IMG/VR virus record: IMGVR_UViG_3300028048_000053
Location: 98,692 to 162,691 of that record
Source: a virus
DNA: 64,000 nt
Strand: one strand, 5' to 3'
The translations under genes and the position numbers were made by a program. The number at the start of each line of letters is the position of its first letter. The first letter of the stretch is position 1. Below the pieces are notes generated by a model. The model worked only from the letters and a program-made list of their open reading frames with translations, was not told where the DNA came from and searched no databases. Below are positions 6,491 to 41,638 of the stretch, one piece after another.

Positions 6491-6538
6491 TTCAAACACA
6501 ATCTTTCGGCCTAATGAATAATTAGGAGGAAAGTTATT

Positions 6539-7294: not shown

Positions 7295-7299
7295 ACTCT

Positions 7300-7340: not shown

Positions 7341-7352
7341 AGGAGATATAAA

Positions 7353-18943: not shown

Positions 18944-19176
18944 TGAAATTTGAAAGAATAACAAAATATCCCGACGCAGTTTTGCCGCAGCGTGGCACAG
19001 CGGGGAGCGCAGGCTATGATTTTTGCGTAGCTGAAGATACTATGTGCTATGTTAATGAAGTAACATATGTTCCAACAGGAATTAAGGCTCAAATCGATGA
19101 CGGTTATTATCTACAACTGTCGTTGAGAAGTTCTGCTCCTAAGAAATATGGAGTTATGCTAGCAAATGGAATCGGT
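18943..19176 (+). CDS. dut: dUTPase exon 1 (motifs 1-2 and the start of motif 3)
   Basis: RGTAGSAGYDF (motif 1) through ...LANGIG. Ends at U 19176. Confidence 0.8.
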
Positions 19177-19418
19177 AGACTATAAACATAACTATGCCGA
19201 TTTAAAACTCCGGAATTAAGCGGGAAGGCTACGTCGAAAGATATGCTAATCCGAACCGAAGGCTAATCAAAGATTAGTCAGGGGCAACGCATAGATGGTG
19301 AAAAGATATAATCCATCCAAGAGGCCGGAGCTATTGCAAAAGCAATAGAAAAGATATGCTGAACTTATAGGAAACTATAAGAACTATTGGATAAAAAGCC
19401 GATAGGATAACAAATTTG
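19177..19418 (+). mobile_element. Probable small group I intron (242 nt) interrupting dut
   Basis: Exon 1 ends in U. The internal guide GCCGAUU (19196-19202) pairs with the exon end AAUCGGU including the U-G wobble. P-, Q- and S-like elements AAUUAAGCGGGAAGG, AAUCCGAACC and AAGAUAUAAUCC are present. Terminal G at 19418. Splicing joins GIG|VVDSDY and restores dUTPase motif 3. Confidence 0.65.
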
Positions 19419-23166: not shown

Positions 23167-23625
23167 ATGGATTTTTTAGACATATTTGTCAAATATTGGC
23201 TATAGTGGCTATTTGGTTTAATAGCAGCTGGCATAGCTTTTGGAGCAAAACATTATGTAACACTTCAAAAGAAAAGCTGGCAAGCAAAATGGGACGAAAA
23301 AATTAAAACAGATGTAATTGATAAACTCGAAGCTGAAATGGCTGAGCAGAAGCAAGAATTTACACAAGCTGACTAGAACATTTACGCAGAGATAGAAGCA
23401 TTATCAGCGGCTTTGGAAAATGCGACTATTGGCATTTTGTCAATCCAAAGCAAAATGTTTTATGATGAATGCCGCAGACTACTGGACCCAAACCATGTAA
23501 TAACATTGGACGAATATGAACAATTTAATAAGGATTATGAAGCTTATAAGGCTCTCGGAGGCAACCATAGGGGAGATATTCTGTATAAGAGTGTGGTTGT
23601 TAAATTCGAGGAAAGCCTAAAATAA
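23167..23625 (+). CDS. Small membrane protein with an N-terminal TM helix and a coiled coil. Holin- or spanin-like candidate, on the plus strand inside the minus block.
   Basis: TM YWLQWLFGLIAAGIAFGA. Two in-frame TAG codons. Followed by a terminator. Confidence 0.45.
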
Positions 23626-23630
23626 AAAAT

Positions 23631-23671
23631 AAGGGCGAGAATTTTAATTGATTCTCGCCCTTATTTTTTTT
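23631..23671. terminator. Bidirectional terminator shared by convergent genes
   Basis: AAGGGCGAGAAT-tttaattg-ATTCTCGCCCTT hairpin plus a T9 run. Confidence 0.6.
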
Positions 23672-23673
23672 TA

Positions 23674-24063
23674 TCAATGAATATAATAAACTCTTGTTTC
23701 AATCATGCTTTTAATATATTCGTTTAAGTCAAGTGATATACTCTATAAGTAATTCCGTGCTTCACTTGGTAAAAGCTCTAGCACAGCTTTATAAGTATCT
23801 TCAAAAGCTTTCTTTTGAGCTTCTAAATCAAACTTACCTTGCTTTTTTAATGAATCGACATAGGTTTGCTAAGTCGTCATAACGCAGTTGGTAACTGTTT
23901 GATTTAGCATATCAATATATTTATTATAAAGCTCATTATTTGTTTTTGTTTTTAATTCCTCTGCCTTAGTAGAAATCCAGGAGACTAAGTATTTGGTTAG
24001 AATAATTAGCACTGGGATGATTACTAGCTGAAAAACAGAAGATATAATATCTTGAATGTTCAT
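23674..24063 (-). CDS. Small membrane protein (TM plus coiled coil), with the same architecture as the 23167-23625 plus-strand gene
   Basis: TM LVIIPVLIILTKYLVSWI. Two TAG codons. RBS TAGGAGGAG before the ATG. Confidence 0.45.
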
Positions 24064-24069
24064 TTTATA

Positions 24070-25134
24070 TTACTCCTCCTAAAGAAATTTATTGTACATA
24101 TTTATCCAGTCTGGGATACATTTTCGCCAAGAAAAATCATAAGTCATAACTTCTGCAATCTTTTTTTGCAATAGTTTTTTGTTATTATAAAGTGAACAAG
24201 CTTCTGAAATAGCTTGGTTAGAATTAAAATATGGAATACAATTATGCTTGTTGAAGGAATCGCTTATTCCCTAAGACAACTAAATTATTGGAATAGCTCC
24301 ATATCGACAAGCATGACGCGGCATTAAAGGAGAAATATCATTAATTGTATTAACAGTCAAGAAGAAATCTGACCCAGACAAAAATTTCACTGTATGCTAT
24401 GGAGACATCCATTCATCCATTGAAATTATATGACCATATTTAATCTTTTCTGGACATACGCAAAGAAAGATTCCATTGTTTTCATCAATACAATCTGCTA
24501 TTTCATAAAACAAATTTATGCCTTTTTTCTCAACAAAACGCCCCATATACAGAAATATCGGCTAATTTGAATTGATTGATAAGACTTTACATAAGTTGTT
24601 TTTGCATATAGTTTTACCAAGTTGATGTTTGGCATTATATTTACAAGGTAAAAACATTCCATTATCTGGATCAATAATATCATCCAATATACCTGTGGAA
24701 AGAGCATAGTCAGCACAGAATTTATGCTAAAGATTGGCAGATAAAACAACTGTTTTTTTATATAACCCACAGGGTATTCTTTCATCAATTGTATACAAAA
24801 TCTTATTCCTATATTTCTTATTTATAAATGGCTCTATATCAACCAACTAGATAATATCTGGGTCTATTGTATCAAGCACGGTATCTAGATAATTCCAATT
24901 CGTTAGTTCATAAAAAAACACTTTTAAAAATTGACAAACAACATAATTTTCTTGTTTTTGTATGAAATCAGTGGAAAAATCTATAAAAAAAGTCTATTCT
25001 TTGTTTTCAGTAATAACATAAACTTCTTGACCACTATCAGCGAGAGATATTGCCAATCCATCAATAAATTCTGAAACTCCCGTCTATATTTTATTGCATA
25101 TAATACTTTGGCTACCAATTAAACATATTCTCAT
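24070..25134 (-). CDS. GT-B glycosyltransferase (GT4/GT5 glycogen/starch-synthase-like), about 354 aa, about 9 TAG codons
   Basis: N-terminus MRICLIGSQ...ADSGQEVYVIT is the GT4/GT5 signature. Its start overlaps the upstream stop as ATGA (translational coupling). The C-terminus is read through TAG codons. Confidence 0.55.
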
Positions 25135-26360
25135 TTTAAAATTTGTTGCACCTTTCTTTCATGGAGCAAAGATTTTACCATTCTCAATCCGGAAGCAGTA
25201 TCCATAGTTTTTAGCAATTCTTCATTTGCGGCTGTTTCAGAAGTAAGTAATCCTTCCGCCCAATAGGTTTTATCAGTTGTCCATAATCCATAACATGTAT
25301 CTTGTTCAAGTTTTATTTCTCTTTTTATTAGTGCAGGGGTTGAACCATCGATTTTTACAGCTCGTTCACCAATATTCCACAAATGCAAATATTGATAAAA
25401 ACCTTGTTCGATATTGAAAAATCTATGTGGATTGGTTGTATGGACAATAGTGCCATCATCAAAATAATAATAATTAGAAACTGGACTTATTCCTTGATTG
25501 GCTATTTTTACAATTCCAACAGGGTTTTTGTTTTTTCCTAAAACTCTATCCTTAACTGTTAAATCCTTAATCATTTTCTAAGTTCCGTCAGCCATAGTTA
25601 TTAAACTATCACCACTTAAACACTCAAACCTTATATAATAGATTGCTTCATCAACGTTTATATTTAAATTTTCATTTCCAGTTGCAAGACAACAAACATA
25701 AAAGTGATTTTCTGCGCCACTGGTAGCTGTAAATGCATCACTCAGCGTATTAGTAATACTCTATTCTTCTTCATTGGTTTCCCACTAAAAATAAAAATTA
25801 AAGTTAAGGTCTTCTCCTCCAGGGTTACTCAAACTTGTACCAGCAAAAAAATTCGCTATTGCATCGTCTTTTGTTTTCTCTTTGTTACTAATTAGATATA
25901 CCATATCATTATATATACTCATTGAGTTTGGGTTAATACTACCCTAAATACTCCAAAATTTTTGAATAGGACTTGTCTCTGTGTTGCCATCTGAATGAAC
26001 TGACCACTAAATTTGATCGCTATAATAAATATTATAATTTTCTATTGCTTCTACATCTATTTCCTCGTAATCATCAATAGGTTCAGTATATTCTTCAACG
26101 GCCAAAGTGAAAGTTAAAGTATGGTCCGATACTAAATATTGATTGGGATAATCACGCCAAGCTATAAGTGCCCATGAATATAAATCATTTTCATCGCATT
26201 GTAGCTATTCGTTATTAGTAATAAACGTAATATTATTTAACTACTCTTCTAAAAGGTAAAAAGGAGGGTCGTTTAAATAATATTTGAAATCATATATACT
26301 ATTATCGCCAAAAGTAGCTTCAAACTTGGATTCAAAAGAATTTTGTGAAATAAGTCCCAT
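25131..26360 (-). CDS. Virion-module protein containing a Hint / bacterial intein-like (BIL) domain in its C-terminal half. Start uncertain.
   Basis: Block A-like RFE|CLSGDSLITMADGTQKMIKDLTVKDRVLGKN. C-terminal block ...TYWAEGLLTSE. Single frame (low positions congruent to 25572 mod 3) through about 8 TAG codons. Ends with TGA at 25131. Candidate starts are ATG 26360 or 26489. Confidence 0.55.
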
Positions 26361-26615
26361 AGACTCCGAATATATTTTTAACTACTATAATACAAAAAAA
26401 ACATTTTCATTGTTAATTAAAAAAGAAAACTAAGACAATAATTCTAGAGGAACTAAAGAAAAATTTATAGATGAAATATTGCTCGAACATTTAAAATCTA
26501 TTTGTTTAATCCTAGCTAATGTCCAATATACTGGAACATACATAAAAGAGGTTAGAATACAAGACTGTAGTAAGCCCGGAAAATCAGGGTGCGTCACCAC
26601 AACACACTAAGCTCG

Positions 26616-27293
26616 TTTATTGTCGGCCCCCGTATTTATATAAGAAGTAAAAGATTTTTTTTTCTTGTTTATTTTGCATATTAAACTATCATTGCTGGAT
26701 AATTGTAAATTTGATGCAGTCTAAGACAAATCCCGCACAAAAATAAAACGAGGTAATTGTTTCTCGTTTAGTAAATTCGGTGATACAAAAAATAGCAATC
26801 CGCTATATGCACTATCGGCGTCATAGTTTTCTAGCTGTGACAAATCAAAATACTTTAAATATGTCATTGGATTAGCACTTTGAATATCTTCATCTGATGC
26901 AAGAAAAGACTGCACATTGGTCATCATTTCTGATATAATTTGGGATAAATTACCAAAATACATTACTCCCAAATCAGACTAGCCATTTATTGATAGAAAG
27001 TAACAAGACAAATCTACATAGCTGCCATCCTCTAGAGGAAGTTGTAATATAAAGGTATCTGTATTTTCTGGCAAATAATTTAAGTTTAAATTCAAAGAAG
27101 AAATTTCTGTTCCAGAGTATATTCTTTTTTGTTCATCTGTAATATCATCTGTAATAACAAATTCTATTTGCGATGCTTCCTAGGAAGGCTCATTTGCTGG
27201 AACCGGTAAATAGTTTGCAGTTTTTGCTCCAATATGATGGATTTGTTCAAAAAAGGAATGTGTAGTTCCAGAAGTAAAAGTCCATTGAGACAT
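26616..27293 (-). CDS. Hypothetical protein (about 225 aa)
   Basis: GAGGGGG RBS and ATG 27293. Fragments 26721-26972 in frame. TAA at about 26616 after a T9 homopolymer. Confidence 0.4.
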
Positions 27294-27296: not shown

Positions 27297-27563
27297 TTAT
27301 TCCCCCTCGTCCTATTCAGGAATATCTTCACTTTCAATAAAAGAAGAAACAACCAAAAATACATCGCCTTCTTCTACCTAAGATAAATCATCATCTTCCG
27401 AATATATGGTGTAAAGTTGCTCAATCTTTTCCGAAACCTAATTCGCCGTTAGTCCATTCTCCTAGATATTATCATCTAGAGTTTTTTCATATATACTATC
27501 AACTATACTTTGCCAATCCTCCTAATACATTTTTACAAAACTATTATTATCAGTCTAACCCAT
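27297..27563 (-). CDS. Small acidic protein (about 88 aa) transcribed divergently from UppS
   Basis: ATG at about 27563 preceded by AAAGGAGG. Ends GEE-TAA. Confidence 0.35.
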
Positions 27564-27587: not shown

Positions 27588-27678
27588 ATCCCTTTTTATT
27601 TTTATAATAACATAAAAAATATGTAATGTCAAACTTGACAAAATATATTTTTTATGTTATTATAAAAATAAAAAGGGA
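27588..27678. promoter_or_regulatory. About 90-bp near-perfect palindrome forming back-to-back sigma70-like promoters (TTGACA-17-TATTAT on each strand) with symmetric RBSs
   Basis: Arms 27588-27622 and 27644-27678 are reverse complements. Inner palindrome TGTCAAACTTGACA. Plus-strand -35 at 27635-27640 and -10 at 27658-27663. Confidence 0.55.
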
Positions 27679-27687
27679 TGAATAATA

Positions 27688-28323
27688 ATGATTACACATT
27701 TAGCAATAATTCCAGATGGCAACCGAAGATGGGCCAGGGAACGTGGTCTACCCGATGGGGCTGGACACGCGCAGGCCCCAACCGTATTATTGCGGATACT
27801 TGATTGGTGTATAGATAAACAAATCAAATATTTAACAGTTTATTGTTTTTCTTCCGATAATTGGAAACGCTCTTCGGAAGAAAGAGCAAATTTAAATGCT
27901 ATTGCCATTCAGTTTTTTACTGATTTTACAGATTGGTTTTTGAAAAACGATATTCGTTTTGTCGCTTAGGGAGATAGAACTGGTTTTAATAAATTCAGCG
28001 AAGAGTTATAGAGCTGTATCTATCAGGCAGAAGAAAAGACAAAAAATTGTTCAACTTTAACAGTTTTTTGTTTACTTAACTATAGTGGTCAACAAGAATT
28101 AATAAATACCATTTCTCAAGGCAAAACACCCGCAGACCTGCGGCCTCCGGTAGATGTAATTGTTAGGACTGGCAAAGAAAAGCGTTTAAGTAATTTTTTA
28201 CCCTGGGAAGCTTGTTATGCTGAGTTAGTATTTAGAGACGAGTATTTTCCAGATATTGACTATTTTATTTTAGAAGATATTTATCAGGAATATGAATCTC
28301 GAGATAAAAGATATGGCAAATAA
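27688..28323 (+). CDS. uppS: Undecaprenyl-pyrophosphate synthase homologue (cis-prenyltransferase, UppS)
   Basis: HLAIIPDGNRRWA, LTVYCFSSDNWKRS, DVIVRTGKEKRLSNFLPWEACYAELVF and C-terminal RDKRYGK align with E. coli UppS blocks. One in-frame TAG at about 27970. Confidence 0.8.
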
Positions 28324-28324
28324 C

Positions 28325-28352
28325 GGAGAGAAATTTTTAATTTCTCTCCATT
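28325..28352. terminator. Bidirectional terminator (GGAGAGAAATTTTTAATTTCTCTCC plus T-run)
   Basis: Perfect hairpin right after the uppS stop and before the stop of the convergent minus gene. Confidence 0.6.
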
Positions 28353-28355
28353 ATT

Positions 28356-31226
28356 TTATTCTTCTGGCTCTTGCGTTGGTAATGTAGGCGTGATAGATAC
28401 ATTTGTTATTTTATCTTCGGTAACAACCGCACCATCTACGCCCAAAATTGTTTTACCTTGGATAATATTACTTTCGTCTAAATTTGTATACGAATCGGTA
28501 TTCATTAATAAAGTATATTCTAAATCATTCTAATGAATAGTAGCATAATTTGTTGTCGAGCCATTTTCCAATTCGTTATTCTTATTTGGTATTGTAATAT
28601 TAGTATTTATTTCAACGTCTGCGACAGGTCTAAATGTATTTCCTTGCTTTACATAAAGCTCATTGCCAAGAAGCTATCCAATAGAGTGCTCAGAGTAATC
28701 TTCTCCAATAGTATATAGAGTATCATTGTTTATCTGAATCTAAGATTGTGATTTTGGTGATTTAGAAGCACTAATGTTCATTGTGCCGTTATGATTTAAA
28801 GAATAACTAATTTTACTCACAATATATTCCCCATTTATATTTGATTTTTCATCAAAAACCTAAATTAATGAATTTGGCTCTAGATTGTATATTGGAATTG
28901 CGGTTAATGAAATATTTTCTATACAATAAGCATATTGATAAATTAAATCGTCAATCTTATTTTTTGCACTAATATTTCGATAACTGATAGACAAATATTT
29001 ATTAAAACCTTTAGGAATATAAATCCAGGTATATCCAGTCTGTGAATCTAACATTTCTTTTGATGGAGTTTGCGATATATCTTCTGAAGGTCTAGTATCA
29101 TATAAAATTAAATCCGGAATTTCTTTAAAAATAATTGCCGAAACCTTATCATCGTTAATAACTTTTTGTCTATCTCCAACTTGTGGAATTGAGAATTGGC
29201 TTAATTCGTCTCCCTAATCTAAAAAGTCTATCCAAAAATTTAGAACCTCTGGATTATAACGGACATTTTTATTCCACCATTTAAAACCACCCTCGTCTTC
29301 ATCAAAATACTCGCTTACATCCTCTTGCGTTTGGTCAACCCATACTCTTTGTTTAGTATAAAAGCCAGTTGTTTCATTACGCTTTATTTCTTCTGTATAT
29401 TCTCCTGGAGTATACTTATATTCATGCGGAAAATTTGGATAATATAACTATCTCCAAAAACCTTGCATGTCGGTATAATACTATTCATATCCAGTATATC
29501 CAGTAGGATAGAGAGAGGGATTGCGGGCCGCCACTTCTGCGAGAAAATCATCTGGATAAATCATAGGAATGAAATTTCCTGGATTATTTTCATCTGATAT
29601 ATATAATGGCTATTCTTCTGAACAACCATGTCCAGCAAAATAATCCAAAGCCATCTGATAAATAATTTCACGCCAATCAACAACATTATCACTCGCGTGC
29701 TGATAAGTTGTTGTGTATACTTGTCCATTTAATGCTTTATAATATGTAGGTTTTTTATCAATCGCATATCTAGCATGAATTGGTATATCTTCGCCATTAA
29801 TACCCTTTCTTTTACCCCAAACTATAAAATCATTTTTTAAATTAGTTAATACCGGAGTATTCTAAATAGCTGTAATTAAATTATTTCCTTCAAAACTATA
29901 AGAATACTTACTTAAATTATTGGCGTAAGTAACATATCGCTCATCATCAGTTGTTATAAAATGACTCCAGCTCGTATTCACGTATATAGGTTTGCGTCTA
30001 AATATAAATCTACCATCTGTATCATAAAAATATTCAAAATCGCCAAGCATATTTTTTATCTTATCTAATACAGAGGTAAGTGATTCTCCGATCGAGGTAA
30101 TCAAATCACCGTTATAAACTAAATCGGTGATACGATATCCAATATCTTGTCCATATTCAATTTTTGCGGCGGTATAAAATTGTTTTTTCTCAGAGTCAGA
30201 AGCACTCTAATAGTCTTCTTCTGAAGATATAATAAAAGTTCCACTATCATTCCGGATAATACTTCCCGTAGTAGCAATACTTTCTTCTACCAATGAATCC
30301 CACTAAAATCCTTCTTCATTAGCAACCGAAAAATCTTTTAAAAATCTAACATTTGTAAAATGCCCAGTAGATTTTTGTCGTAAAACAACAAGTGGCTCAT
30401 CACCACGCCATAATACTTGCTCTAAAGCGTATTTATCTACATCTTGAATAATAATATTATGGAAAGGTTCTTTAGCATATGCATGAACTGACTCTCTAAT
30501 AATTTTTTCAAGAGGTATCTTTTTGATTGAATAATTACGTTCAACCTCATATAAATCTTTTAACTAAAAATTATTATCTTCGGATTTCCAGCTTGCGGTT
30601 GTGTTTAATAAATAATAATCGGGTTGGTCTTGTTTTTTATAGAAATAAGTATTTGCTATACATGTTTGAGTAGTATCGGCTGAAACAAATAACTAATGTG
30701 GAGTAATTATTTTTTTATATTTTGTATAATGATTTCCAGTATAAGTTTTGGGATTGGTATTATCATAAATATATGAACCATTTAATAGAAACCAGTTTCC
30801 ACCGTTATTATCTAATTCAAATACGCACTATTCTATTGAAGTATCATTCGAATCAACTTTCTCATAATAATCATAAGACATAAGAGTATTTGAGTTATCA
30901 GCTGTTGGTTCAACCTTTCTTACTTGGTAAGACAAGGTTTCTTCGGTGCCAAAGTCAATAGAAGCGAATAACTAGCCGCCAAGTTCACCATTTAACATAC
31001 ACATCTTATCTTTGCCGGATAAAGAAATGGTTAAACCATTTACCGATAAAGATGTGTTAAATGATGTAAGAATATATGTTCCCATGGGAAACCAAACTAT
31101 CTCAGGGTATTTTCCAAAAGTAGGAGAGTACTCATTGGATAGCAAATTGCTTATTCCTATTTCGAGCTTAAATTTTGTTTTGAGGCTCCAATAGTAGTCG
31201 TTGATGTTTACATCTGCGGCTACCAT
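28356..31226 (-). CDS. Large tail-associated protein (about 950 aa, more than 15 TAG codons). Function unknown; distal tail or baseplate by position.
   Basis: Fragments 28860-29054, 29862-30104 and 30972-31226 share one frame. TAA at about 28356. Start is ATG 31226 or a non-canonical start near the AAGGAGG RBS at about 31424. Confidence 0.45.
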
Positions 31227-31437
31227 GGTTAGGCTGCAAGTGCGGCGGACCGCAGATGCTCCATCAATATTTATGCTTCCTCCGGTTATTTTTCCCTAGG
31301 CTTCATCTACATAATCTTCATTTATATTTAAAGCAATAATTTTTGCATAAAATGCTTTATATTGCTATTCATTTATTTGTTGTAAAAAATCCGTGTCTAA
31401 GAGATAATTCAAAATCTATTACCTCCTTAAAGATAAG

Positions 31438-33165
31438 TTATACGATTTGATTGCTTGTGTAATAAGTTGTGTTGATATCTGGAGTGCCTGTAAATGTGCC
31501 GCCTGTATTTAAAAACATGTTAGAAAGTGCGTTGCTCGCCGTCGTTCCCGTTCCTTCTGCCGGTATGCGGTATGAGGATTGGTATTCTTCTGACGTAGAT
31601 AATTGTATTTTTGTACAACCTTTAAACATACTGTCATAGCATCCGGTTGTAAGTTTTGTTGCTGGCAGAGATGGTAAACCTATGAGCTCGACACACTCTT
31701 GATACATATATCTGTAGCAGTAGTTTGCAAGACTCGTTGCTGGAAGTCTCGTTGGTGTCTGGAGACTGCTGCATCCCCGGAACATAGCCTGATAGCAATA
31801 GGCCGCAAGAGTGGTAGCGGGGAGATTCGGCGCCTGACGCAGAGAGCTGCACCCTTCAAACATGGATGCGTAGCAAGATTGACCAAGCGATGTGGCGGGT
31901 AGCTCCGGGGGAATCTGCAAAGATGAGCAGCCTTCGTACATGCGCCCATAACAGTAAGCTGCTGCGGTGGTGGCTCTCAAAACGCCGGGATTCTCGAGTG
32001 CGCTGCAGTATCGAAACATAGAATGGAAGCAGCTACTATTTAGGCTTGTAGCAGATATATCAGGAGCAGAGAGCAGTCTTGTACACCCTTCAAACATACT
32101 TTGATAACACTTATCCTTCATCGATGTGGCAGGGAGCGCCGGAGCCGATTCGAGGGAAGTGCAACCCTTGAACATTTCACAGTAGCACATCGTTCCAAGC
32201 GTTGTTGCAGGCAGGGCCGGAGGCACCTTGAGGCTCGTGCAGCCTTTGAACATATTGGTGTAGCAGTACCCACTTGAAAGCGATCTCGCCGGAAGCTCTG
32301 GTGCATCTTCAAGGGCAGTGCAATTCTCGAACATGTATCCGTAGCAGGTCATAGGCAGCGACGTTGCCCTCAGCGCAGGAGCTTTGCGGAGCGCAGTACA
32401 GCCTGAAAACATAGAGTGATAGCATTTTTGGCCTAATGAAATAGCTGGAAGTTCAGGGGGCTCGACCAATGATTTACATCCAGAAAAGCAGAGAGTAAGG
32501 CAGTTTGCTCCAAGCGACGTGGCGGCGATAACGGGCGCTTCGCTTATCTTGCAGGCAGCAAACATCCCGTTATAGCACGATTCTGGGGCAGTTTTAGCTG
32601 GCAAGATTGACGGGCCTTTCGTCAGGTTCGTGCAGCCGTGGAACATATAAAAGAAACATTGCTCGGAAATTGTTGGCAACGGGATTTCAGGGGCAGAAAC
32701 AAGCGCAGTACAACCATAGAACATGCAAGAAAAAGCACCTGTTGTCACCGACGGGTGAAGCCCATCAGCCACTTGTTGATAGTCAAGTAAGTTCTCGATG
32801 TTCCCTGAGCAATGGACATTTTCTCCAGTAATTGTCCATTTATAACTTGGCGGATAATTGAAATTATATCCGGTAATCTTGGTATTATTTCTCCCACGTA
32901 GATATAATTTGTTTTTCTATCCACTTGTAAGTGTATCTTCGCCATCCCATACCTCCCACGTCCTCCCATTAGTAGACCATTCCAGCGTTCCATTCCAATG
33001 CTTAAAAGCGGTCAATGTAAACGGTCCTATGCTGCTAAAAGTAAGACACGAATCATTCACAGGCTCTTCGGTTTTTTCCCAAAGCTATATATCTCCTTGA
33101 TATACCTTTTTTATATTTTTTTCGCCTTTATAAATAGCCGAAATATTTTCCCAGTTAGAAATCAC
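31438..33165 (-). CDS. Surface/receptor-binding protein with about 16 BspA-type leucine-rich repeats (LRR_5 family)
   Basis: Repeats of C(Y/F)xxMFxGC(T/S)SLxxxPxLPAT(S/T)L, about 23 aa, throughout 31438-32772. That part is GC-rich and TAG-free. The frame continues upstream through 2 TAG codons to GTG at about 33165 with a GAGGAAGAGGAG RBS. Confidence 0.7.
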
Positions 33166-33179
33166 TCTTATTGCTCCTC

Positions 33180-33386
33180 TTCCTCAATAAAATAAAAAGT
33201 TAAAGTATCATGACTACTTAATTCATCATAGTCTTCTTGAGTGCCGGTCCAAATAGAATCTAGTGAGCCAATTGCAGTAGTGAGTTCTGCTAGTGTAAGA
33301 GTTTGGTTTTCCCCAGTCTTCAATCGAACCGCATCGACTATGTCATCTAAATGCTACTTTGATATAATAAATTCGGTATCCACTAT
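33180..33386 (-). CDS. Small hypothetical protein (about 70 aa) with an acidic C-terminus
   Basis: Weak. ORF between fibre A and the LRR gene, read through 2 TAG codons. Confidence 0.25.
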
Positions 33387-33388: not shown

Positions 33389-36300
33389 TCAAACCTCGCT
33401 TCCAAAGCTAATTTCATCCCCTTGCTGCAAAGACCCTGCAATCAAACGTCCCTTAACATATGCCGTTTTTCCCTGTCTAATGTCTCTACTTGTTGCATTT
33501 GCACTACTAGTATCGACAATGTAATCTACTTCTTCTGGAATATTTTCTGAAGACTAGTTAATAACTGGAACCAATGCACCATTTTCCTCATTTATATTTA
33601 TTTCTCCGACTTCTATTATCATTCTATCCTTATCTACATATAAAGAACCAATAGCATCCAAGAAATCAGTAGTGTTACCAATTCCAATAGCAGTAAGATT
33701 ATTATAGTTAAAATCAGCAACTTCATATGCTTGGCACTAAAAACTGTGTATCATGCGGCCGAGCTAGTCCTGTGGCGTTAGAGAGACATTCATCAATCGC
33801 ACTATAAAGTTTCCCTCATAAGGAGATTTAAACATTTTTATAGTGCCACTATTCAACCATTCTAGCAAAGCCATTTTGTATTCTCGTTCAACGCGAACGG
33901 TATACCCAGTTAAACTAGTAGCAAATATGTTACTTCTTATTTCTTGATAAGAAGGTGTCTCATCTCTTGGTGAGTTTTCATTGGAGATATTTATTAGTGT
34001 ATAAATATGATAATCAGTTATTTTTATTTTTCTATAAAAATAACCTGGCTGATTTCCATTTACAAAATTTGCCATAAATTCACCATATGAATCCTGGTAT
34101 AAAGATAAATCTGCCATAGATTTAGGATCTGTTTCAGACCAGTATAACTTTCCACCTCTAGAAAGATAAATTCCGGTTCTACTATTTCTCTCCATGTGGT
34201 CGTAATAGGATGATGTTGATGAATCTAAAAATGCAAGATCTATTTTATTCAACGCTAAATTAGACCAAGGCTATTGTGCTGAAAAATATAAATGTTCATT
34301 ATCTATATGCTGCTCTGACGAAAAATTATCAGATATATCAATAAATTTTAAATTTTTATTATATAAAGAAATTACTTGATAATATTTATAAGAACTGTTA
34401 TTCCAAAAGCCAGCAATTAGAGAACCTATATTATTATCAGTTATTTGTATTAAATCCAACTTTGAGGTTGGCGCAGAAACAGTTGTATAATAAAGATTAT
34501 CCTTGTCAGTTTTAGTGTTTAACTTTCTTAGTGTTAAAGTGTTAATGCCGAGTTCCTAAAAATACTAATCATCTGGAAAAGCTGTAAATATTCTCTTATT
34601 CATTAATACGTCATTGTGATTGGAAACATAAATCTTTTTATCTAAAGGCAAAAATTGATTAGTTTCATCATCATCCATATTGAATGAAATTAATCCGTTA
34701 AGAGGAAATTCTCTGTATTTAACATTACCATTTCTAAAGAAAAAAGGATATTTACTTCCTATTGTATCCATCTTCTGCTCTAAAATAGTTTGTTTAAAAG
34801 AGCTTACTTTAGGATTAAAACGAATCTTAACTTGTTTATCTCCGTCATACAAAAACATATCTTCAAAATCAGAATATACAATATTAGAGGAAGAATAAGA
34901 AGATACATAGCCATATTTGTCGCACAGAGAATATCTGTACTAATGAAAAATTCCTTGCTCAATTGTATAATCGCGGTAAGAAAAATTTCTTAATTCAAAG
35001 GAAGAAGACAAATTAATAATATCAATTTTCTGCCAGGACGTAAAATCATCCCTATCGTCAGCTCGCTGTATTAAAATCGACAAAGGGAGATATTTAAAAT
35101 TATGATGTATTCCAAAATCGTTAGGTAAAAAATCAAAAATATTACGAATATCTAAAACGGTAATAAAATACCATCCGTCGACAGTTCCAAAATATAAAGA
35201 CAAATCTTTCTAATATATTACTTTTTTTAAATAACCTTGTTCTATTAAGTATTCATAATCCACGATATCTCCATCATCAAAGTATTGAGAACCCTAGCCT
35301 GGTAAAAAATAAGTCTCAGAACTATCATAAACTTCTCCATTGCCCACTATCATTCCACGTAAAGGAACTGTATTTGGTATTAATTTGCGAAGCTATGGTA
35401 ATCTCTAGCTCGATCCACGATACTCAAATACTTCTTTGTAACCGTTTAATAAATATGGCGTAATGCTTCCATGGGCAAAAAGTGTCTTACTGTAATTGGT
35501 GTGCGGCAATTCAACAACAAATAGATAATCTGAATCCTCAACTTTAGTAATTTCACTATTCTCATATACTTGTTCAATGTAAGATAACGCCTTTTGTTTA
35601 TTAGTCTGAAATTTTAAAGTAATATAACCGTTATCAAAATCATTGTCCGCGACTAAATCCATGATTTGCCGCACATCCTCAACATATACCAAAGCAATAT
35701 TATATTCTTCTGATTGAATTTCATAATTGTTTATTGTTTTAACGCAATATTTTACTTTATATTTTTCTTGTGGCTCAATATCTGTTTCAAAGGTATATGT
35801 ATCTCTATATACATAGTTTACGCTATTAACAGTATCATCTATTGAGAAATTATGCATCTACCAACCAGAATCTTCAATTACATTATTATCTTTCGATAAT
35901 ATAAACTTAAATTGATACGGTTTCTCTGTTACATCTGGGTTCACATATACTCCTGTGCAAACAGAAGAAAAATAATTTATTTTATGAATATCGTATTGTT
36001 GAATCTCAACAGTTGGGTGCTATGTATACTTTCCAGTAGCAACAGTAGAATAAAACCCAACAACGCTTGTGGTTATGTTAGTAGATGAATCTCTGGTTGT
36101 TTTAACATATGCCATCTGGAACTTATAATACTGACCAACTTTAAATCTTTGAAATACTGTTCTATTTTCACTGGCGTCTCTAATATAAAAAACAGCTTGA
36201 TTGTTTAAAACATCCGGGTCAGTTGCCGTCACTATATAATTATTACTTTGTGCGGTTTTAATTTTTAAATTAAAACTATAAGATATATCGCTGTCGCTTT

Positions 36301-36547
36301 CCGCAGGAACATATGTTTTACTATGTATAAATGGAACAGTTATTTTTATCTAACAAGCATAATATACCTTGTCATTAATAATTTCTGTATCGGTAGATAA
36401 TACATATGAACCATTTACATATTCATAGTATCCGGCAACACTAGGATTTGCGGAAGGGTTTACCTAGATAAATTCTTTACAGAATGCCGGTATCGTGCTA
36501 TCTATAATTGGAGGCTACAATTTTTCTGCAATCGCTTCTATTGGCAT
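33389..36547 (-). CDS. Tail fibre / tailspike protein A (about 1052 aa, about 12 TAG codons)
   Basis: AGGAGGA RBS plus ATG at about 36547. Fragments 36020-36232, 35405-35857, 34940-35203, 34565-34858, 34271-34459 and 33764-34252 share one frame. TGA at about 33389. The C-terminal module is paralogous to part of fibre B. Confidence 0.6.
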
Positions 36548-36552
36548 TAATT

Positions 36553-36774: not shown

Positions 36775-39700
36775 TTAGGAATCAGAATTACCGCCGCCGT
36801 CTACTAAAGCATCGACTCGCGCCTTTAACCTGTTAAAAACTGAAATTTCGACATAACTACTTAAATCTGAAGTTTTGACATAATTACTTAAATCTGAAGT
36901 TTTGACATAATTACTTAAAGATGAGCCGATATAATCAATTAAAGACTAGCCACTCTCGCCTATCCTAATAGCACCGATTAAAAAAATTTGCGTACCTGTA
37001 ATATGAATACCATCGTTTTGACAAGAAACGTAATTTTTTACTTCACCGCTTCCATATTGATATGAAATCGCTGCATTAGACCCTGTGATTTTTACAACAC
37101 TGTTTCCATCACCCTGGGTGCTTACGTGAATTCCCACTCCATCATCACCTTCAGTTGATCCAGGAACTCCGCTACTAACCTATCCAATAGTCCCAAGATT
37201 ATTAATCGTTATATAATTAGTTGAAATACCAGATGCACTACTTAAAACGGTAGAACCCCCGGATAAACTATCGCCATTAATTGTCCATCCACCAATTTGA
37301 CCGGCATCCGCCGAAAGATAACTGGCATAAACTCTACTACTACTGATAACGCCTTCAAATTGTCCACTCTAAATATAAGCAGTACCATCCCATCCAACTC
37401 TAAATTTACGCTAATTAATATTTTCACTCATTCCAATGGATAGGGGGTAGTGTTCTTGATTAACTCCTAATGTTATATATTTATTTGAAGGATTCTCTTC
37501 TCTTTTATAGTACTAAAAATCTACATTATACCGTTCGCCACTCTCCACTTGGCGATATCCCGAAGAATCGCGGTAAAAAAGATTGGAGGAATTAAAAGTC
37601 TCATTGTTGCCAGTAAAATACTAATTCTTGGCGATGTTATTAGAAATATAAGTATACTGTTCTGTATTTTTCACCATTTTAATATATCCGTCATCTATAT
37701 CAAGCAACATTCCCTATGGACTATTCTAATTGGCCCAATTAGACGAAAAAATCTATGATTTTTCTCCATCAAGATAAATGCGGCCACGTCCGTCTTTGCC
37801 GATAAACCCAGTTCCATCATCTTTAAAAGCATATGACATAGCACCATGATTAAAGCCATAAATCCCTGTATTTTTTGTTACAGCAGTTTCTGTACTAGTC
37901 CTAGACCAATCTCCTAGCACCACTCCAGTGAATGTATTGTCCCGTTCCTTGCGGCCGGCTGCAAATCCCGAGGCTACGATCGTTCCAGTATCATTATCTG
38001 TCACTATATCCTTACCATTCCATTTATTTAAAGTTGCAGAAGGATATTTATTTTCGTAGACTAGAATTGGCTAAGTCCATATGGGTACATATTCTAATTC
38101 AGAACCAAGTATATCCTCCATATGTGATACCCCTTCTTCATCCTGCACCTCTTCTTGTCCAATGACAACGTCAATAGTTTTTTCTTCAAAAAACTGTATC
38201 CCATAGGGTAATGCATCGGGAATAAAAATGCTAATAGGATTTAAAACAGGTTTATCAAATGTATCTTCTCCTAGCTTAGTTCCAGTTTCTTGTAAGGCTG
38301 GCTTGAAATTGTTTTCATTATTATCATCTCTCGGAGGAAATAGTAATTTCCAATGTCCATTTAAAGAATTTGTATTGTCGCCATGTCTTTTTGGAACAAA
38401 TTGACCATTTATTAATTCATATGCAGTAATTTGATAAGGATTTTTATAAAAATCTGCCTCTCCAGAAGAACCGTATCTTACTCTATCCGGACCTTCAATA
38501 TACTAAATTGAATATGTTTCAGTTTCACCATTTTTTAAAGCTATTGGATAATAAGATACAAGGTCGTAATCTCCGAAATTTTTTATTGTTAATTGAAGAA
38601 TGAATAAAGAATCCATATCAACATTTGAATCTGCAATGATAGTGACAGTATGATTATCATTATCAACTTCTGCTTTTAATCCACCATCACCCAAAAGATT
38701 TGGATAAATTTTTTCTTTTGCCTCTATTGGTTCATAGTATGTTTCGGCCTCTGAATAACCTTCCCATGGGTCTAGAACAAACTAATCGTTTATTTTAATA
38801 AAGTATCTTTTATTTTTTGAATAATAATACTGCTTATAATACTGGTTCTAGTTATCTTGAAGAAGTCGGATAGGTTCGGCACCATCACCATGATTAGGAT
38901 TATATTCGCCCGTTTCCTAATTTAAGGGATCGCTTGCAAAAGTAACAATCTACCTAAACTCTAATTTATTCTTTTCTTCTTTTTTATAATATACATTTTC
39001 CTCCCAATTAGCTTTCTCTTTAATTTGTCCTTCTGCATCATATACCGTTTCCAATGTATTATATTCTTCTTCATTTGTAATTAAAATATACCCACATTTC
39101 CTATATGGCTAATCTGTTTTGAGATTTATCTCACTTGTAAATTTTTCCGTTTCTGGATCAAATTTTACATAATTATGCGTCGTCTATGATGGATTTTCAA
39201 TAAAATAATAATAACCTGTTGGCTAATATAGAGCATCCGGATTATGTTCTAACCCAAAATTTAATGCATTATCACCGCTTGTAAAAACCGGATAATAAAT
39301 GTCCTATTCTTCTTTTTCCTTTATTCTATGTTCACTTGCTTCATAGCCAAATTCGGCTACATGCCAACTCGCATCAATAGTCGCTCCTCGCGGCCAAGCC
39401 ACTGTATCGCCAGCCTAATCAAAAATCTCTATATCTCCAATAAGAGCAGTTTCTGTTTTTTCCTCGTTATAAGGTTCTAAAAATTCTTCATTGTCATTCT
39501 TACTCAGATTTAAAGCATTCTTACCATCCCTCCAAGTAAGAATAACTTTATAATTAGAGCCATTATCCCCGGCCGTTCCAAATTCTGGCTATACAAAAGC
39601 ATGATAGTTCACGCCGTCTTTAAGGACATCCAACTAAATGGTATTGTTGGTTGCTCCATTATTTAAATGTTTCTTAATGGTAAAACCTACCTCTGTTACA

Positions 39701-41559: not shown

Positions 41560-41638
41560 ATATACTCACTCCTTTATCTCAGTTATTTCTATAATAATGT
41601 AAAAATTACAAAAGAATAATTGGTCAATTTAGCCCAAT

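What the first reader, a model, noticed from the sequence alone, without database searches (positions are those of the whole stretch)
27588..28323. Phage-encoded undecaprenyl-pyrophosphate synthase (UppS) driven by a perfectly symmetric roughly 90-bp divergent promoter palindrome
ORF 27688-28323 aligns block-for-block with bacterial UppS / cis-prenyltransferase (HLAIIPDGNRRWA ... DVIVRTGKEKRLSNFLPWEACYAELVF ... RDKRYGK). UppS makes the C55 lipid carrier for peptidoglycan, O-antigen and teichoic-acid synthesis. It is rarely phage-borne and here sits on the plus strand in the middle of the minus-strand virion module.

It is flanked by a bidirectional terminator (28325-28352). It is preceded by an almost perfect palindrome (arms 27588-27622 and 27644-27678) that builds back-to-back TTGACA-17-TATTAT promoters and mirror-image RBSs. 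These serve uppS and a divergent 88-aa acidic gene.

Together with the nearby glycosyltransferase at 24070-25134 this suggests a cell-envelope glycan remodelling cassette, with candidate roles in seroconversion or superinfection exclusion, or in hijacking the lipid carrier during lysis timing.
Basis: partly seen in the sequence, partly recalled or inferred. Interest (0 to 1): 0.6.

Follow-up and report, generated by a model that had tools for sequence, protein, structure and literature searches.

The report
Amber-recoded phage UppS in Hint–glycosyltransferase cassette
A gut phage that reads the TAG stop codon as glutamine carries an intact gene for the enzyme that makes the bacterial cell-wall lipid carrier. 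The gene belongs to a previously undescribed phage gene cassette (self-cleaving Hint protein, glycogen-synthase-like sugar transferase, lipid-carrier synthases) next to the lysis genes, and here it is driven by a mirror-image double promoter.

Summary
The UppS homologue is real, but 27688-28323 is not an ORF in the standard code. It has two in-frame TAG codons. The whole window is TAG-recoded: long-ORF coverage is 51% under code 11 and 95% with TAG as sense.

Read with TAG=Gln, the 211-aa protein matches PF01255 end to end (173.7 bits) and passes the TIGR00055 uppS cutoff. It keeps every catalytic residue.

It is not a recent host capture. It groups with short (207-216 aa) UppS proteins; every member whose context I checked lies in phage DNA. 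In most of these loci the order is Hint-domain protein, GlgA-like glycosyltransferase, sometimes an FPP synthase, then UppS. The genes overlap by 4-14 nt and lie beside holin/endolysin genes.

In this window UppS has been moved and inverted. A 92-bp palindrome (45-nt arms, 93% complementary) supplies two mirror-image promoter-like sites, each TTGACA-17-TGnTATTAT. One faces uppS. The other faces an 88-aa / Hint / GT / holin operon.

The enzyme identity is solid. Promoter function and the biological role are inferred. The role is probably carrier-lipid supply for the Hint/GT module late in infection. I found no literature on this cassette.

The parts
27688..28323 (+). uppS-like cis-prenyltransferase gene: 211 codons plus TAA stop, with in-frame TAG (=Gln) at codons 94 (27967-27969) and 108 (28009-28011)
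   Evidence: Translation. PF01255 173.7 bits over profile positions 1-219. TIGR00055 157 bits against a cutoff of 109.55. Catalytic residues are invariant in alignment A1, and TAG-94 aligns with a conserved Gln ('FQGRR') in the three closest relatives.
27588..27679 (.). 92-bp palindrome: arms 27588-27632 and 27635-27679, with a perfect 35-nt core in each arm
   Evidence: It is unique in the window and is the longest inverted repeat there.
27635..27663 (+). Rightward sigma-70-type promoter-like site (TTGACA, 17 nt, TG-n-TATTAT) facing uppS
   Evidence: 11 of 12 matches, TG present.
27604..27632 (-). Leftward mirror-image promoter-like site facing the 88-aa / Hint / GT / holin operon
   Evidence: 11 of 12 matches, TG present.
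28318..28356 (.). Hairpin between the convergent uppS and the 1018-aa tail-region gene. It is an intrinsic-terminator-like site on the + strand and a stable hairpin on the - strand.
   Evidence: -16.6 and -21.1 kcal/mol; z-scores -5.5 and -9.2.
27297..27563 (-). 88-aa acidic ORF with 7 in-frame TAG, the highest TAG density in the window. It is the first gene of the leftward operon and ends 3 nt before the Hint gene.
   Evidence: No Pfam or PHROG match.
25131..27293 (-). 720-aa protein (14 TAG). It has a variable N-terminal region, a conserved C-terminal Hint/BIL-type autoprocessing domain (Cys in 'ECLSGDS', TxxH block, 'YWAEGLL', no terminal His-Asn) and a conserved helical tail of about 35 aa.
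   Evidence: Profile against PDB: BIL2 domain at E=3e-6. Model of relative P0124 matches BIL, intein and Hedgehog Hint folds. Family size.
24070..25134 (-). 354-aa GT-B glycosyltransferase (9 TAG), glycogen-synthase-like. Its start overlaps the Hint gene stop by 4 nt.
   Evidence: 38% identity to the L004 GT. Family members match TIGR02095 GlgA at 2e-46 (below cutoff) and PDB glycogen synthases at 2e-22. Alignment. Junctions.
23674..24063 (-). Holin (2 TAG), starting 6 nt after the GT stop
   Evidence: phrog_13712 holin, E=3.3e-25.
23621..23672 (.). Hairpin that closes the leftward operon; it has T-tracts on both sides
   Evidence: -28 and -26 kcal/mol.

Best explanation
**What it is.** The window comes from a large phage that decodes TAG as glutamine; the source contig is probably about 172 kb. 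It is a distant relative of phAss-1, and its host is probably a gut Clostridia member.

Positions 27688-28323 encode an intact cis-prenyltransferase of the UppS type. It condenses isopentenyl-PP onto an allylic primer, most likely farnesyl-PP, to give a medium- or long-chain polyprenyl diphosphate, the precursor of the undecaprenyl-phosphate carrier.

**Where it belongs.** The gene belongs to a group of shortened UppS genes found in phage contexts. Normally such a gene is the last gene of a translationally coupled cassette: a protein with a variable N-terminal domain and a C-terminal Hint autoprocessing domain, then a glycogen-synthase-like GT-B glycosyltransferase, then sometimes an FPP synthase, then UppS. 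The cassette lies immediately upstream of the holin and endolysin genes.

**What is different here.** In this phage uppS has been relocated upstream of the cassette and inverted. Co-expression appears to be kept by an inverted duplication of the promoter and leader. This gives a 92-bp palindrome with two back-to-back near-consensus sigma-A-type promoter-like sites. One would fire into uppS, which ends at a hairpin terminator. The other would fire into the 88-aa / Hint / GT / holin operon, which ends at a second hairpin.

**Timing and role.** All five genes contain TAG codons, so they can only be translated in full once amber suppression is active, that is, late in infection. The inferred role is that the phage tops up the polyprenyl-phosphate carrier pool for whatever lipid-linked product the GT/Hint pair makes around the time of lysis.

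**Shown:** enzyme family, intact active site, recoding, cassette linkage, palindrome and promoter-like anatomy.
**Inferred:** promoter activity, product chain length, timing, and the carrier-supply role.
For: - **Recoding.** Long-ORF coverage is 51% under code 11 and 95% with TAG as sense. TAG is absent from the replication genes and dense in the late genes. TAG-94 aligns with a conserved Gln in the three closest homologues. TAG-108 aligns with Gln in 5 of 18 homologues.
- **Phage relatives.** The closest named phage is the TAG-recoded phAss-1 (portal 38.6% identical; PMC10607447).
- **Enzyme identity.** PF01255 is matched over its full length. TIGR00055 is passed. The best PDB sequence hits are UPP synthases. 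The invariant residues are D10, N12, R14, H27 region, F54, S55, N58, W59, R61, R160, R166, S168 and E179.
- **Fold.** The model of clade member P0001 has pLDDT 88 and TM 0.87-0.91 to deca-, undeca- and dodecaprenyl-PP synthases.
- **Phage lineage.** The NJ tree groups the window with L001-L004 and all 215/216-aa forms, apart from the 222-253-aa forms that include a host uppS from a pyrH-frr-uppS-cdsA operon. Bootstrap support is 55, 74 and 72. All checked contexts are phage. GC content of uppS equals the genome background.
- **Cassette.** Hint, GT and UppS co-occur in 17 of 26 UppS-seeded loci. The Hint-GT junction overlaps by 4 nt in 16 of 17 loci, and most GT/FPPS/UppS junctions overlap by 4-14 nt (exceptions: a 753-nt gap in L010/L018, the convergent L004 and the rearranged window). 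The same trio is recovered when seeding with the Hint module alone in GTDB and in metagenomes.
- **Primer.** An FPP-synthase homologue lies next to UppS in 9 of the UppS-seeded loci.
- **Lysis neighbours.**
- **Promoter and terminators.**
Against: - No activity of any kind was measured.
- Bootstrap support for a single phage UppS clade is only 55 of 100.
- Product chain length cannot be read from sequence, and a region of about 21 residues (alpha5-alpha6 of E. coli UppS) is deleted.
- The suppressor tRNA is not in this window, so 'late' timing rests on analogy with other recoded phages.
- Near-consensus host-type promoters are more typical of early genes than of late genes.
- The palindrome is not found in any relative, so it carries no comparative support.
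- The window's GT has Asp where glycogen synthases have the first Glu of the EPCGL motif, so that partner may be impaired.
- Hint/GT pairs exist without any phage UppS (L027, L041, L044). UppS is therefore an accessory to the core pair, not a required part.
- L001-L003 carry UppS without Hint or GT within the fetched DNA.
Confidence: 0.55

Rival explanations
1. This is the reader's view: an envelope-glycan remodelling cassette. UppS and the GT would modify a surface polymer (teichoic acid, cell-wall polysaccharide or S-layer glycan). The aim would be to mask receptors, either for superinfection exclusion or to stop progeny from adsorbing to debris.
For: - The UppS-GT linkage is conserved.
- GT-B enzymes commonly act on undecaprenyl-linked acceptors at the cytoplasmic face (my knowledge; for example TagE, TarM and MurG).
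- Some cassette-bearing relatives are temperate: L041 has an integrase and an excisionase.
- The cassette sits in the accessory-gene slot between the tail-fibre and lysis genes.
Against: - None of the neighbouring ORFs scanned matched a flippase, a GT2 Und-P-sugar synthase or a GT-C family.
- This view does not explain the invariant, translationally coupled Hint protein.
- In this phage all the genes need amber suppression and share an operon or promoter with the holin. That leaves little time for new polymer to reach the surface.
Confidence: 0.22
2. Hedgehog-like lipid or glycolipid transfer. The Hint domain forms a thioester at the C-terminus of its variable N-terminal cargo. The thioester is resolved by a hydroxyl or amine of a polyprenyl-linked molecule made by UppS, with or without FPPS, and the GT. 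This would covalently anchor the cargo to a carrier lipid, and possibly afterwards to the wall, in a sortase-like way.
For: - The Hint fold is present with the catalytic Cys and the TxxH block. The terminal His-Asn is replaced by Ser/Gly, so only N-terminal cleavage or transfer is possible.
- A conserved extension of about 35 aa follows the Hint domain. It occupies the position of Hedgehog's sterol-recognition region.
- The Hint gene is tightly coupled to the GT and to two prenyl-diphosphate synthases.
- The module always lies at the extreme C-terminus of very diverse cargos; 407 clusters matched.
Against: - The argument is purely architectural.
- BIL domains can simply hydrolyse.
- The C-terminal tail is short and not obviously hydrophobic.
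- Hint/GT pairs exist without UppS.
- No signal peptide is evident by eye in the cargo N-termini (no predictor was run).
- No precedent is known in bacteria or phages.
Confidence: 0.12
3. Lysis-timing or cell-integrity role. The phage UppS, with or without FPPS, keeps the Und-P pool and peptidoglycan synthesis going after host shut-off. The cell then does not lyse before the holin fires.
For: - The gene is adjacent to, and probably co-transcribed with, the holin and endolysin genes.
- Blocking isoprenoid supply is itself a prophage lysis mechanism: YdfD inhibits IspG (PMC8835842, title and abstract listed).
Against: - This view does not explain the linkage to the GT and the Hint protein.
- UppS is catalytic and stable, so host enzyme should persist through a lytic cycle (my inference).
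Confidence: 0.12
4. It is a cis-prenyltransferase but not a C55 synthase. It would make a short-chain or irregular prenyl diphosphate for a different product.
For: - The family includes Z-FPP, neryl-PP, lavandulyl-PP and cyclolavandulyl-PP synthases with the same fold.
- The protein is shortened.
- It scores below the cutoffs of all species-specific NCBIfam equivalogs.
Against: - TIGR00055 is passed.
- The best sequence and structure matches are C50-C60 synthases.
- An FPP synthase is a neighbour in relatives.
- The residue aligned with the E. coli tunnel-floor residue L137 is Leu (my own hand alignment to a recalled E. coli sequence, not a tool result).
Confidence: 0.08
5. The palindrome is not primarily a promoter pair. 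It would be a rearrangement scar, a cruciform, or an operator for a dimeric regulator, with transcription coming from elsewhere.
For: - It is absent from all relatives.
- uppS has clearly been moved and inverted relative to the ancestral order.
- Perfect 35-nt symmetry extends beyond the promoter hexamers into the leader.
Against: - Both arms place -35, a 17-nt spacer, an extended -10 and an SD-like element in the right order and at the right distance from the two start codons.
- They are the best promoter matches in the late region.
- An operator role is compatible with promoter function and does not exclude it.
Confidence: 0.12
6. It is a decayed pseudogene or an inactive homologue.
For: There are two stop codons in the standard code, a deletion of about 21 residues, and no PHROG match.
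Against: - TAG is sense genome-wide.
- The TAG positions align with Gln.
- All catalytic residues are invariant across a group with only 37-47% identity.
- The deletion is shared by the whole clade, and the model folds confidently.
Confidence: 0.03

Closest known systems
Bacterial undecaprenyl-diphosphate synthase (UppS/IspU; PF01255, TIGR00055; e.g. E. coli 1JP3/1X06, S. aureus 4H8E, H. pylori 2D2R)
   Same: - The fold and all catalytic and substrate-binding residues are the same.
- The family profile is matched over its full length.
- Identity to solved UPP synthases is about 30% by tblastn against phage-database records of host UppS and 27-35% in the fold alignments of clade member P0001; profile and sequence matches are.
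   Different: - It is 211 aa rather than about 230-253 aa, with roughly 21 residues missing between the equivalents of alpha5 and beta-E.
- It is encoded by a phage and contains two amber codons read as Gln.
- It is not in the pyrH-frr-uppS-cdsA housekeeping context (compare L041).
- It belongs to a separate group found in phage contexts.
phAss-1 / proposed Phassvirus group: TAG-to-Gln recoded gut phages of about 136 kb (PMC10607447)
   Same: - TAG recoding is concentrated in structural and lysis genes.
- The phage is large and from the human gut, with Clostridia predicted as host.
- The portal proteins are homologous at 38.6%.
   Different: - phAss-1 gave no UppS hit in the tblastn search of the phage collection.
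- The paper does not contain the words 'undecaprenyl', 'prenyl' or 'glycosyltransferase'.
- The relationship is only distant.
Hedgehog / bacterial intein-like (BIL) Hint autoprocessing domains (e.g. 6Y75 BIL2, 2LWY C. thermocellum BIL, 1AT0 Hedgehog)
   Same: The partner protein (25131-27293) has the Hint fold, the Cys nucleophile and the TxxH block. It lacks the terminal Asn, so it should cleave or transfer rather than splice.
   Different: - It has a conserved helical tail of about 35 aa.
- It is invariably coupled to a GT and usually to prenyl-diphosphate synthases, in a phage lysis-proximal context.
- The nucleophile that resolves the thioester is unknown.
Phage envelope-glycan modification genes (Gtr seroconversion operons; prophage TarP; TagE/TarM-type teichoic-acid glycosyltransferases)
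   Same: A phage-borne glycosyltransferase that plausibly acts on an undecaprenyl-linked substrate. It sits in the accessory slot near the tail-fibre and lysis genes.
   Different: - No GtrA/GtrB/GtrC-type components are present.
- The GT is glycogen-synthase-like (GT5/GT4 type).
- The phage brings the carrier-lipid synthase itself, and in relatives an FPP synthase as well.
- A Hint protein is part of the unit.
Other cis-prenyltransferase genes in cultured phages (Streptomyces phage Gilgamesh gp102; Flavobacterium phage 6H)
   Same: They are PF01255-type homologues in phage genomes.
   Different: Identity is only 26-27% and the 6H match is partial. They lie in unrelated phages and I did not check their gene context. 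I take them to be independent acquisitions.

Membership tests
UppS / cis-prenyltransferase (PF01255, TIGR00055) | Full-length profile match above the curated cutoffs | tested here: met
   PF01255 173.7 bits (cutoff 27) over profile positions 1-219. TIGR00055 157 bits (cutoff 109.55).
UppS / cis-prenyltransferase (PF01255, TIGR00055) | Catalytic and substrate-binding residues present (E. coli D26, N28, R30, H43, F70, S71, N74, R77, R194, R200, S202, E213; numbering from my own knowledge of P60472) | tested here: met
   D10, N12, R14, G26-H27, F54, S55, N58, W59, R61, R160, R166, S168 and E179 are invariant in 19 sequences and in 29 sequences.
UppS / cis-prenyltransferase (PF01255, TIGR00055) | cis-prenyltransferase fold | tested here: met
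pLDDT is 88 and TM 0.87-0.91 to 7CPN, 2VG2, 4H8E and 4U82.
UppS / cis-prenyltransferase (PF01255, TIGR00055) | The product is C55 undecaprenyl diphosphate made from FPP plus 8 IPP | not testable with these tools
   The evidence is indirect only: the best hits are C50-C60 synthases and an FPP-synthase gene is adjacent in 9 related loci.
TAG-to-Gln recoded phage (genetic code 15) | ORFs become continuous only if TAG is read as sense, and TAG aligns with Gln in homologues | tested here: met
   Coverage is 51% against 95%. TAG-94 aligns with a conserved Gln, and TAG-108 aligns with Gln in 5 of 18 homologues. L001-L004 show the same behaviour.
TAG-to-Gln recoded phage (genetic code 15) | A phage-encoded suppressor tRNA(CUA) | tested here: not met
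   ARAGORN found no tRNA in the 64-kb window. The source contig is probably about 172 kb, so the tRNA may lie outside the window. Some recoded phages lack one (PMC10607447).
Divergent sigma-70/sigma-A promoter pair | -35 and -10 hexamers with 16-18 nt spacing on both strands, correctly placed upstream of both start codons | tested here: met
   Both sites match 11 of 12 positions with a 17-nt spacer and a TG extension. They are 2 of 8 such sites in 64 kb.
Divergent sigma-70/sigma-A promoter pair | Transcription actually initiates there | not testable with these tools
   Needs TSS mapping or reporter assays.
Intrinsic (bidirectional) terminator | GC-containing hairpin followed by a U-tract on each strand | tested here: inconclusive
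   On the + strand there is an 11-bp stem followed by ATTATTTTAT, which passes. On the - strand the hairpin is stable (-21.1 kcal/mol) but the tail GTTATTTG fails the T-tract rule.
Hint / BIL autoprocessing domain (partner protein 25131-27293) | N-terminal Cys/Ser nucleophile, TxxH block and Hint fold | tested here: met
   The Cys is invariant and the His-Arg-Phe motif is invariant. The TxxH block is present in most members. The profile hits BIL2 at E=3e-6. The model matches BIL, intein and Hedgehog folds at E down to 9e-9. Pfam hits on single sequences are below cutoff.
Splicing intein | Terminal His-Asn followed by a +1 Cys/Ser/Thr extein residue | tested here: not met
   The block-G equivalent reads 'ANGLLSG(D/A)A' ('AEGLLTSE' in the window). 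There is no His-Asn, and a conserved tail follows instead of a C-extein.
Glycogen/starch synthase (GT5, TIGR02095) for the GT at 24070-25134 | Full-length match above cutoff, and the KxGGL, R...K and E(PCGL) motifs | tested here: not met
   Relatives score 158.7 bits against a cutoff of 328, and only over the C-terminal half. The R/K pair is kept, but the window protein has D and P in place of E and G in the EPCGL motif. It is homologous to this family but not an equivalog.
Gtr-type phage seroconversion operon | GtrA flippase, GtrB GT2 Und-P-glucose synthase and GtrC polytopic transferase | tested here: not met
   No such family was hit among the window neighbours scanned, which were a selection of the ORFs, nor in the related loci.

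The most novel reading that the evidence does not exclude
The conserved phage unit (variable cargo fused to a Hint domain, then a glycogen-synthase-like GT, then an optional FPP synthase, then UppS) may be a self-contained protein-lipidation or protein-glycolipidation machine.

In this reading the Hint thioester is resolved by a polyprenyl-(phospho)-sugar or polyprenol that the phage itself makes. This would be a bacterial-virus analogue of Hedgehog cholesteroylation, or of sortase transfer to lipid II. The phage protein would be tethered to the membrane or wall at the time of lysis.

Under this reading the window's palindromic promoter exists to keep the relocated uppS co-expressed, at matching timing, with that machine.
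Probability: 0.12. Interest if true: 0.9.

Novelty: new variant of a known kind. Interest (0 to 1): 0.62.

Why it matters
Undecaprenyl phosphate is the limiting carrier for peptidoglycan, teichoic acids and surface glycans, and it is an antibiotic target. A whole lineage of gut phages carries its own UppS, often with an FPP synthase. This means these phages actively manipulate the carrier-lipid branch of isoprenoid metabolism, an auxiliary function I could not find described anywhere.

The tight coupling to a Hint autoprocessing protein and a glycogen-synthase-like transferase, right next to the lysis genes, defines a widespread module of unknown function that can be tested directly. The Hint module alone matched 407 protein clusters at 50% identity.

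The locus is also a clean example of an operon that contains a holin, sits behind strong host-type promoter-like sequences, and can only be translated after amber suppression. That bears on the idea that stop-codon recoding acts as a timer for lysis.

Tried and rejected
- **Viral-contig scan with the single UppS protein** found nothing. An alignment was needed.
- **The search for homologous proteins with the whole 720-aa Hint protein** returned nothing, apparently because the word filter was saturated with 8000 candidates. A profile of the C-terminal module worked.
I modelled clade member P0001 instead.
- **Look-up of the source contig through P0137** failed.
- **PHROGs** has no family for this UppS, GT, Hint protein or the 88-aa ORF. 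The large flanking tail-region proteins matched only PHROGs of unknown function, and no endolysin was found among the ORFs I scanned between about 20 and 36 kb.
- **One gapped promoter pattern** was mis-specified and found nothing. I replaced it with my own scan.
- **Literature searches** for phage UppS, for Hint plus GT plus prenyltransferase in phages, and for isoprenyl transferase as an auxiliary metabolic gene found nothing relevant.
- **First guess of a crAss-like phage** (from the giant ORF and TAG recoding) was rejected. The portal places the phage near phAss-1 and large phages of Firmicutes hosts (Enterococcus, Brevibacillus, Lactococcus, SPbeta-like).
- **Recent capture of the host gene** was considered and rejected on tree position, the shared deletion, background GC and the presence of TAG codons.
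- **Acquisition by imprecise excision.** The L041 prophage sits beside the host uppS, which hints at this route. I regard it as unproven coincidence.
Full report
**1. What is in the sequence**

The frame 27688-28323 (+) translates to a UppS-like protein, but with two in-frame TAG codons (codons 94 and 108). The ORF listing under the bacterial code stops the ORF at 27969.

This is not decay. ORFs of at least 100 aa cover 51% of the window under code 11 and 95% if TAG is read as sense. Recoding TGA or TAA gives 61% and 81%.

TAG codons are absent from a block of replication genes, including the DNA polymerase. They are frequent (1-6 per 100 codons) in the minus-strand late block.

The divergent 88-aa ORF (27563-27297) contains 7 TAGs. 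No tRNA gene lies in the window.

The portal protein's best named relative is phAss-1 (38.6% identity). phAss-1 is a 136-kb human-gut phage shown to use TAG as Gln, with Clostridia predicted as host (PMC10607447). A 100%-identical fragment of a window protein is on record from a 171,974-bp contig. That contig is probably the source.

**2. The enzyme**

With TAG read as Gln, the 211-aa protein matches PF01255 from profile position 1 to 219 (173.7 bits). It passes the TIGR00055 uppS cutoff (157 against 109.55 bits). Its best solved relatives are undecaprenyl-PP synthases from H. pylori, C. jejuni and M. luteus.

In an alignment with 18 homologues, the residues I know to be catalytic or substrate-binding in E. 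coli UppS are invariant. These are D26, N28, R30, H43, F70, S71, N74, R77, R194, R200, S202 and E213 (numbering from my own knowledge) (again).

The first TAG aligns with a Gln that is conserved in the three closest homologues ('FQGRR'). The second TAG aligns with Gln in 5 of 18 homologues. This is direct support for TAG=Gln and against the pseudogene reading.

The protein lacks about 21 residues between the equivalents of alpha5 and beta-E. The closest relatives share this deletion.

The model has pLDDT 88 and TM 0.87-0.91 to dodeca-, deca- and undecaprenyl-PP synthases. Product chain length cannot be determined with these tools.

**3. It is a phage lineage, not a stray host gene**

In 50,697 phage records there are only 26 hits, all below 35% identity. 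Many of these records are unannotated short contigs or far larger than a phage genome, so they may be host DNA filed as phage (my reading of the record sizes). The clearest phage cases are Streptomyces phage Gilgamesh and Flavobacterium phage 6H.

In the large protein collection the best hits (47% identity, 207-209 aa) lie on four contigs that are also TAG-recoded. The next tier (37-41% identity, mostly 215-216 aa) looked bacterial by name ('Oscillibacter MAG'). It turned out to sit between tail-fibre-like genes and endolysins on contigs of 147-170 kb, and on IMG/VR viral contigs of up to 128 kb.

An NJ tree places the window with L001-L004. That group is sister to all the 215/216-aa forms. 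Both lie apart from the 222-253-aa forms, which include a genuine host uppS in a pyrH-frr-uppS-cdsA operon. Bootstrap support is moderate: 55 for the union, 74 and 72 for the two subclades.

The uppS region has background GC content, and 2 of its 10 Gln codons are TAG. Both facts fit long residence in a recoded phage.

**4. The conserved cassette**

I clustered the proteins of 26 UppS-bearing loci. Two families co-occur with UppS in 17 of them, a wider spread than any other family.

- *First partner: a Hint-domain protein.* It is 431-849 aa long, with a hypervariable N-terminal part and a conserved C-terminal module of about 165 aa.
  - The module starts with an invariant Cys ('ECLSGDTLIT') and has an intein-like TxxH block ('ETHEHRF').
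  - It ends in 'YWANGLLSG' without the His-Asn that splicing needs, followed by a conserved helical tail of about 35 aa.
  - A profile of the module hits the BIL2 Hint domain (E=3e-6), PI-SceI and DnaB inteins in PDB.
  - A model of a minimal member (P0124, pLDDT 84) superposes on BIL, mini-intein and Hedgehog autoprocessing domains.
  - phmmer of the window's C-terminal 147 aa against 1.84 billion representatives finds 407 clusters. In nearly all of the listed hits the module lies at or near the C-terminus of proteins of very different lengths.
- *Second partner: a GT-B glycosyltransferase.* Its C-terminal half is homologous to ADP-glucose glycogen synthases (TIGR02095 at 2e-46, below cutoff; PDB 1RZU and 2QZS at 2e-22).
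- *Third partner in nine loci: an FPP-synthase homologue.* It lies between the GT and UppS (NF045485 171 bits; PF00348 134 bits).
- *Order and coupling.* The order Hint, GT, (FPPS), UppS is fixed. The Hint-GT junction is a 4-nt overlap in 16 of 17 loci, and the downstream junctions overlap by 4-14 nt in most loci; the exceptions are a 753-nt gap in L010/L018, the convergent L004 and the rearranged window.
- *Independent recovery.* Seeding searches with the Hint module alone recovers the same arrangement. This holds in two Lachnospiraceae MAG contigs and in many human-gut metagenome contigs.
- *Neighbours and exceptions.* Downstream come small membrane-type proteins and endolysins (Amidase_2, Peptidase_M15, CHAP). 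Hint-GT pairs without a phage UppS also exist (L027, L041, L044). More distant Hint proteins lack the GT. The core is therefore Hint plus GT, and UppS (with or without FPPS) is a frequent add-on.

**5. The arrangement in this window**

The window has the cassette in rearranged form. Reading the minus strand, the order is:
- 88-aa ORF, then a 3-nt gap;
- Hint protein (27293-25131), then a 4-nt overlap;
- GT (25134-24070), then a 6-nt gap;
- holin (24063-23674; phrog_13712, E=3e-25);
- a strong hairpin at 23621-23672.

uppS lies upstream of this operon on the opposite strand. Between the two start codons is the 92-bp palindrome.

Each arm carries, in order, TTGACA, a 17-nt spacer, TG-n-TATTAT and AAAAAGGGAT. 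The three mismatches between the arms cluster just after the -35, and the remaining 35 nt are identical.

These are the two best promoter-like sites in 14 kb. They are two of eight sites with at least 11 of 12 matches in the whole window.

uppS ends 1 nt before an 11-bp-stem hairpin followed by a T-tract. The convergent 1018-aa gene ends at the other foot of the same hairpin, but without a good T-tract.

None of the related loci I examined has this palindrome. In them uppS is either co-directional with and overlapping its upstream neighbour, or, in L004, convergent with the GT.

The simplest reading is that uppS was relocated and the promoter-leader of the Hint operon was duplicated in inverted orientation. 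This would keep the relocated gene co-regulated with its partners. That is an inference, and promoter activity is untested.

**6. Function**

*Shown.* The gene encodes an intact UppS-type enzyme. It is genetically tied to a Hint autoprocessing protein and a glycogen-synthase-like GT. The unit abuts the lysis genes. All its genes need amber suppression.

*Inferred.* The phage raises the supply of polyprenyl-PP (in relatives starting from IPP/DMAPP through its own FPP synthase). The supply serves a lipid-linked reaction carried out by the GT/Hint pair late in infection.

It has no flippase, GT2 or GT-C support, leaves the Hint protein unexplained, and fits poorly with co-expression with the holin. 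A lysis-timing role (maintaining Und-P) and a Hedgehog- or sortase-like transfer of the Hint cargo onto a polyprenyl-linked nucleophile both remain open. The last is the most novel reading, and I put it at about 0.12.

*Caveat.* The window's GT has Asp and Pro where glycogen synthases have the Glu and Gly of the EPCGL motif. Its activity is uncertain.

**7. Novelty and verdict**

I found no paper describing phage UppS or this cassette. The phAss-1 paper does not mention either.

The enzyme itself is a known kind. What is new:
- the persistence of its lineage in phages;
- its amber recoding;
- its coupling to a Hint/GT module;
- the palindromic promoter solution in this particular genome.

I rate it a new variant of a known kind, with interest 0.62.

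Noticed in passing
window 1-64000: The whole window uses TAG as a sense codon (Gln). TAG-free genes cluster at 6518-8126, 9579-13725 and 18414-19185 (replication/early). The minus-strand late block has 1-6 TAG per 100 codons. No tRNA gene is present in the window.
   Followed up: yes
window 9579-12062 and 12298-13725 (+): A DNA polymerase (phrog_405 / phrog_12219) is split into two TAG-free ORFs separated by 236 nt. This could be a split gene, an intron or intein-like interruption, or two subunits.
   Followed up: no
window 27297-27563 (-): The 88-aa acidic ORF has 7 TAG codons, the highest density in the window (5.8 per 100). It ends 3 nt before the Hint gene. It could act as a translational 'fuse' that blocks expression of the holin operon until amber suppression is on. 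This is an idea only.
   Followed up: partly
window 31438-33183 (-): A repeat-rich protein with an approximately 22-residue cysteine-containing repeat is about 50% GC in a 30-35% GC genome. It has only 2 TAGs, which suggests recent acquisition. The L007 protein at the corresponding position has an LRR_5 Pfam hit, and homologues flank UppS in L001-L003.
   Followed up: partly
window 41680-51027 (-): A 3115-aa ORF contains 90 in-frame TAG codons. Other very large ORFs lie at 36775-41565 (1596 aa), 33389-36550 and 28356-31418. The two I scanned (28356-31418 and 33389-36550) gave no informative PHROG match; the two largest were not scanned.
   Followed up: no
L041 (ENA ERZ19651506 contig, 42.9 kb): A temperate prophage carries Hint, GT, holin, endolysin, Xis and integrase. 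It is integrated directly beside the host pyrH-frr-uppS-cdsA operon. This is either coincidence or a hint at how phages first picked up uppS.
   Followed up: no
L005, L011, L012, L015-L017, L025, L045-L062: Many standard-code gut phage contigs (GC 50-59%) carry an FPP-synthase homologue (256 aa) between the GT and UppS. The phage therefore encodes both steps from IPP/DMAPP to polyprenyl-PP.
   Followed up: partly
L007/L008 3153-4838: One Hint-protein cargo contains a long run of DnaJ-type CxxCxGxG zinc-finger repeats. Others contain Pro-Asp-Pro-Lys repeats. The cargo part is hypervariable, while the Hint domain and tail are conserved.
   Followed up: partly
window 23167-23625 (+): A second single plus-strand gene lies inside the minus-strand block. 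It encodes 152 aa with a hydrophobic N-terminal stretch that looks like a membrane helix by eye, and matches phrog_4105 and phrog_4257 (both of unknown function). It is convergent with the holin across the 23621-23672 hairpin.
   Followed up: no
L004 771-1400: The UppS of this related TAG-recoded contig has four in-frame TAGs (codons 4, 69, 133, 202). The UppS genes of L001 and L003 have none. TAG use within the same gene is therefore fluid between related phages.
   Followed up: yes
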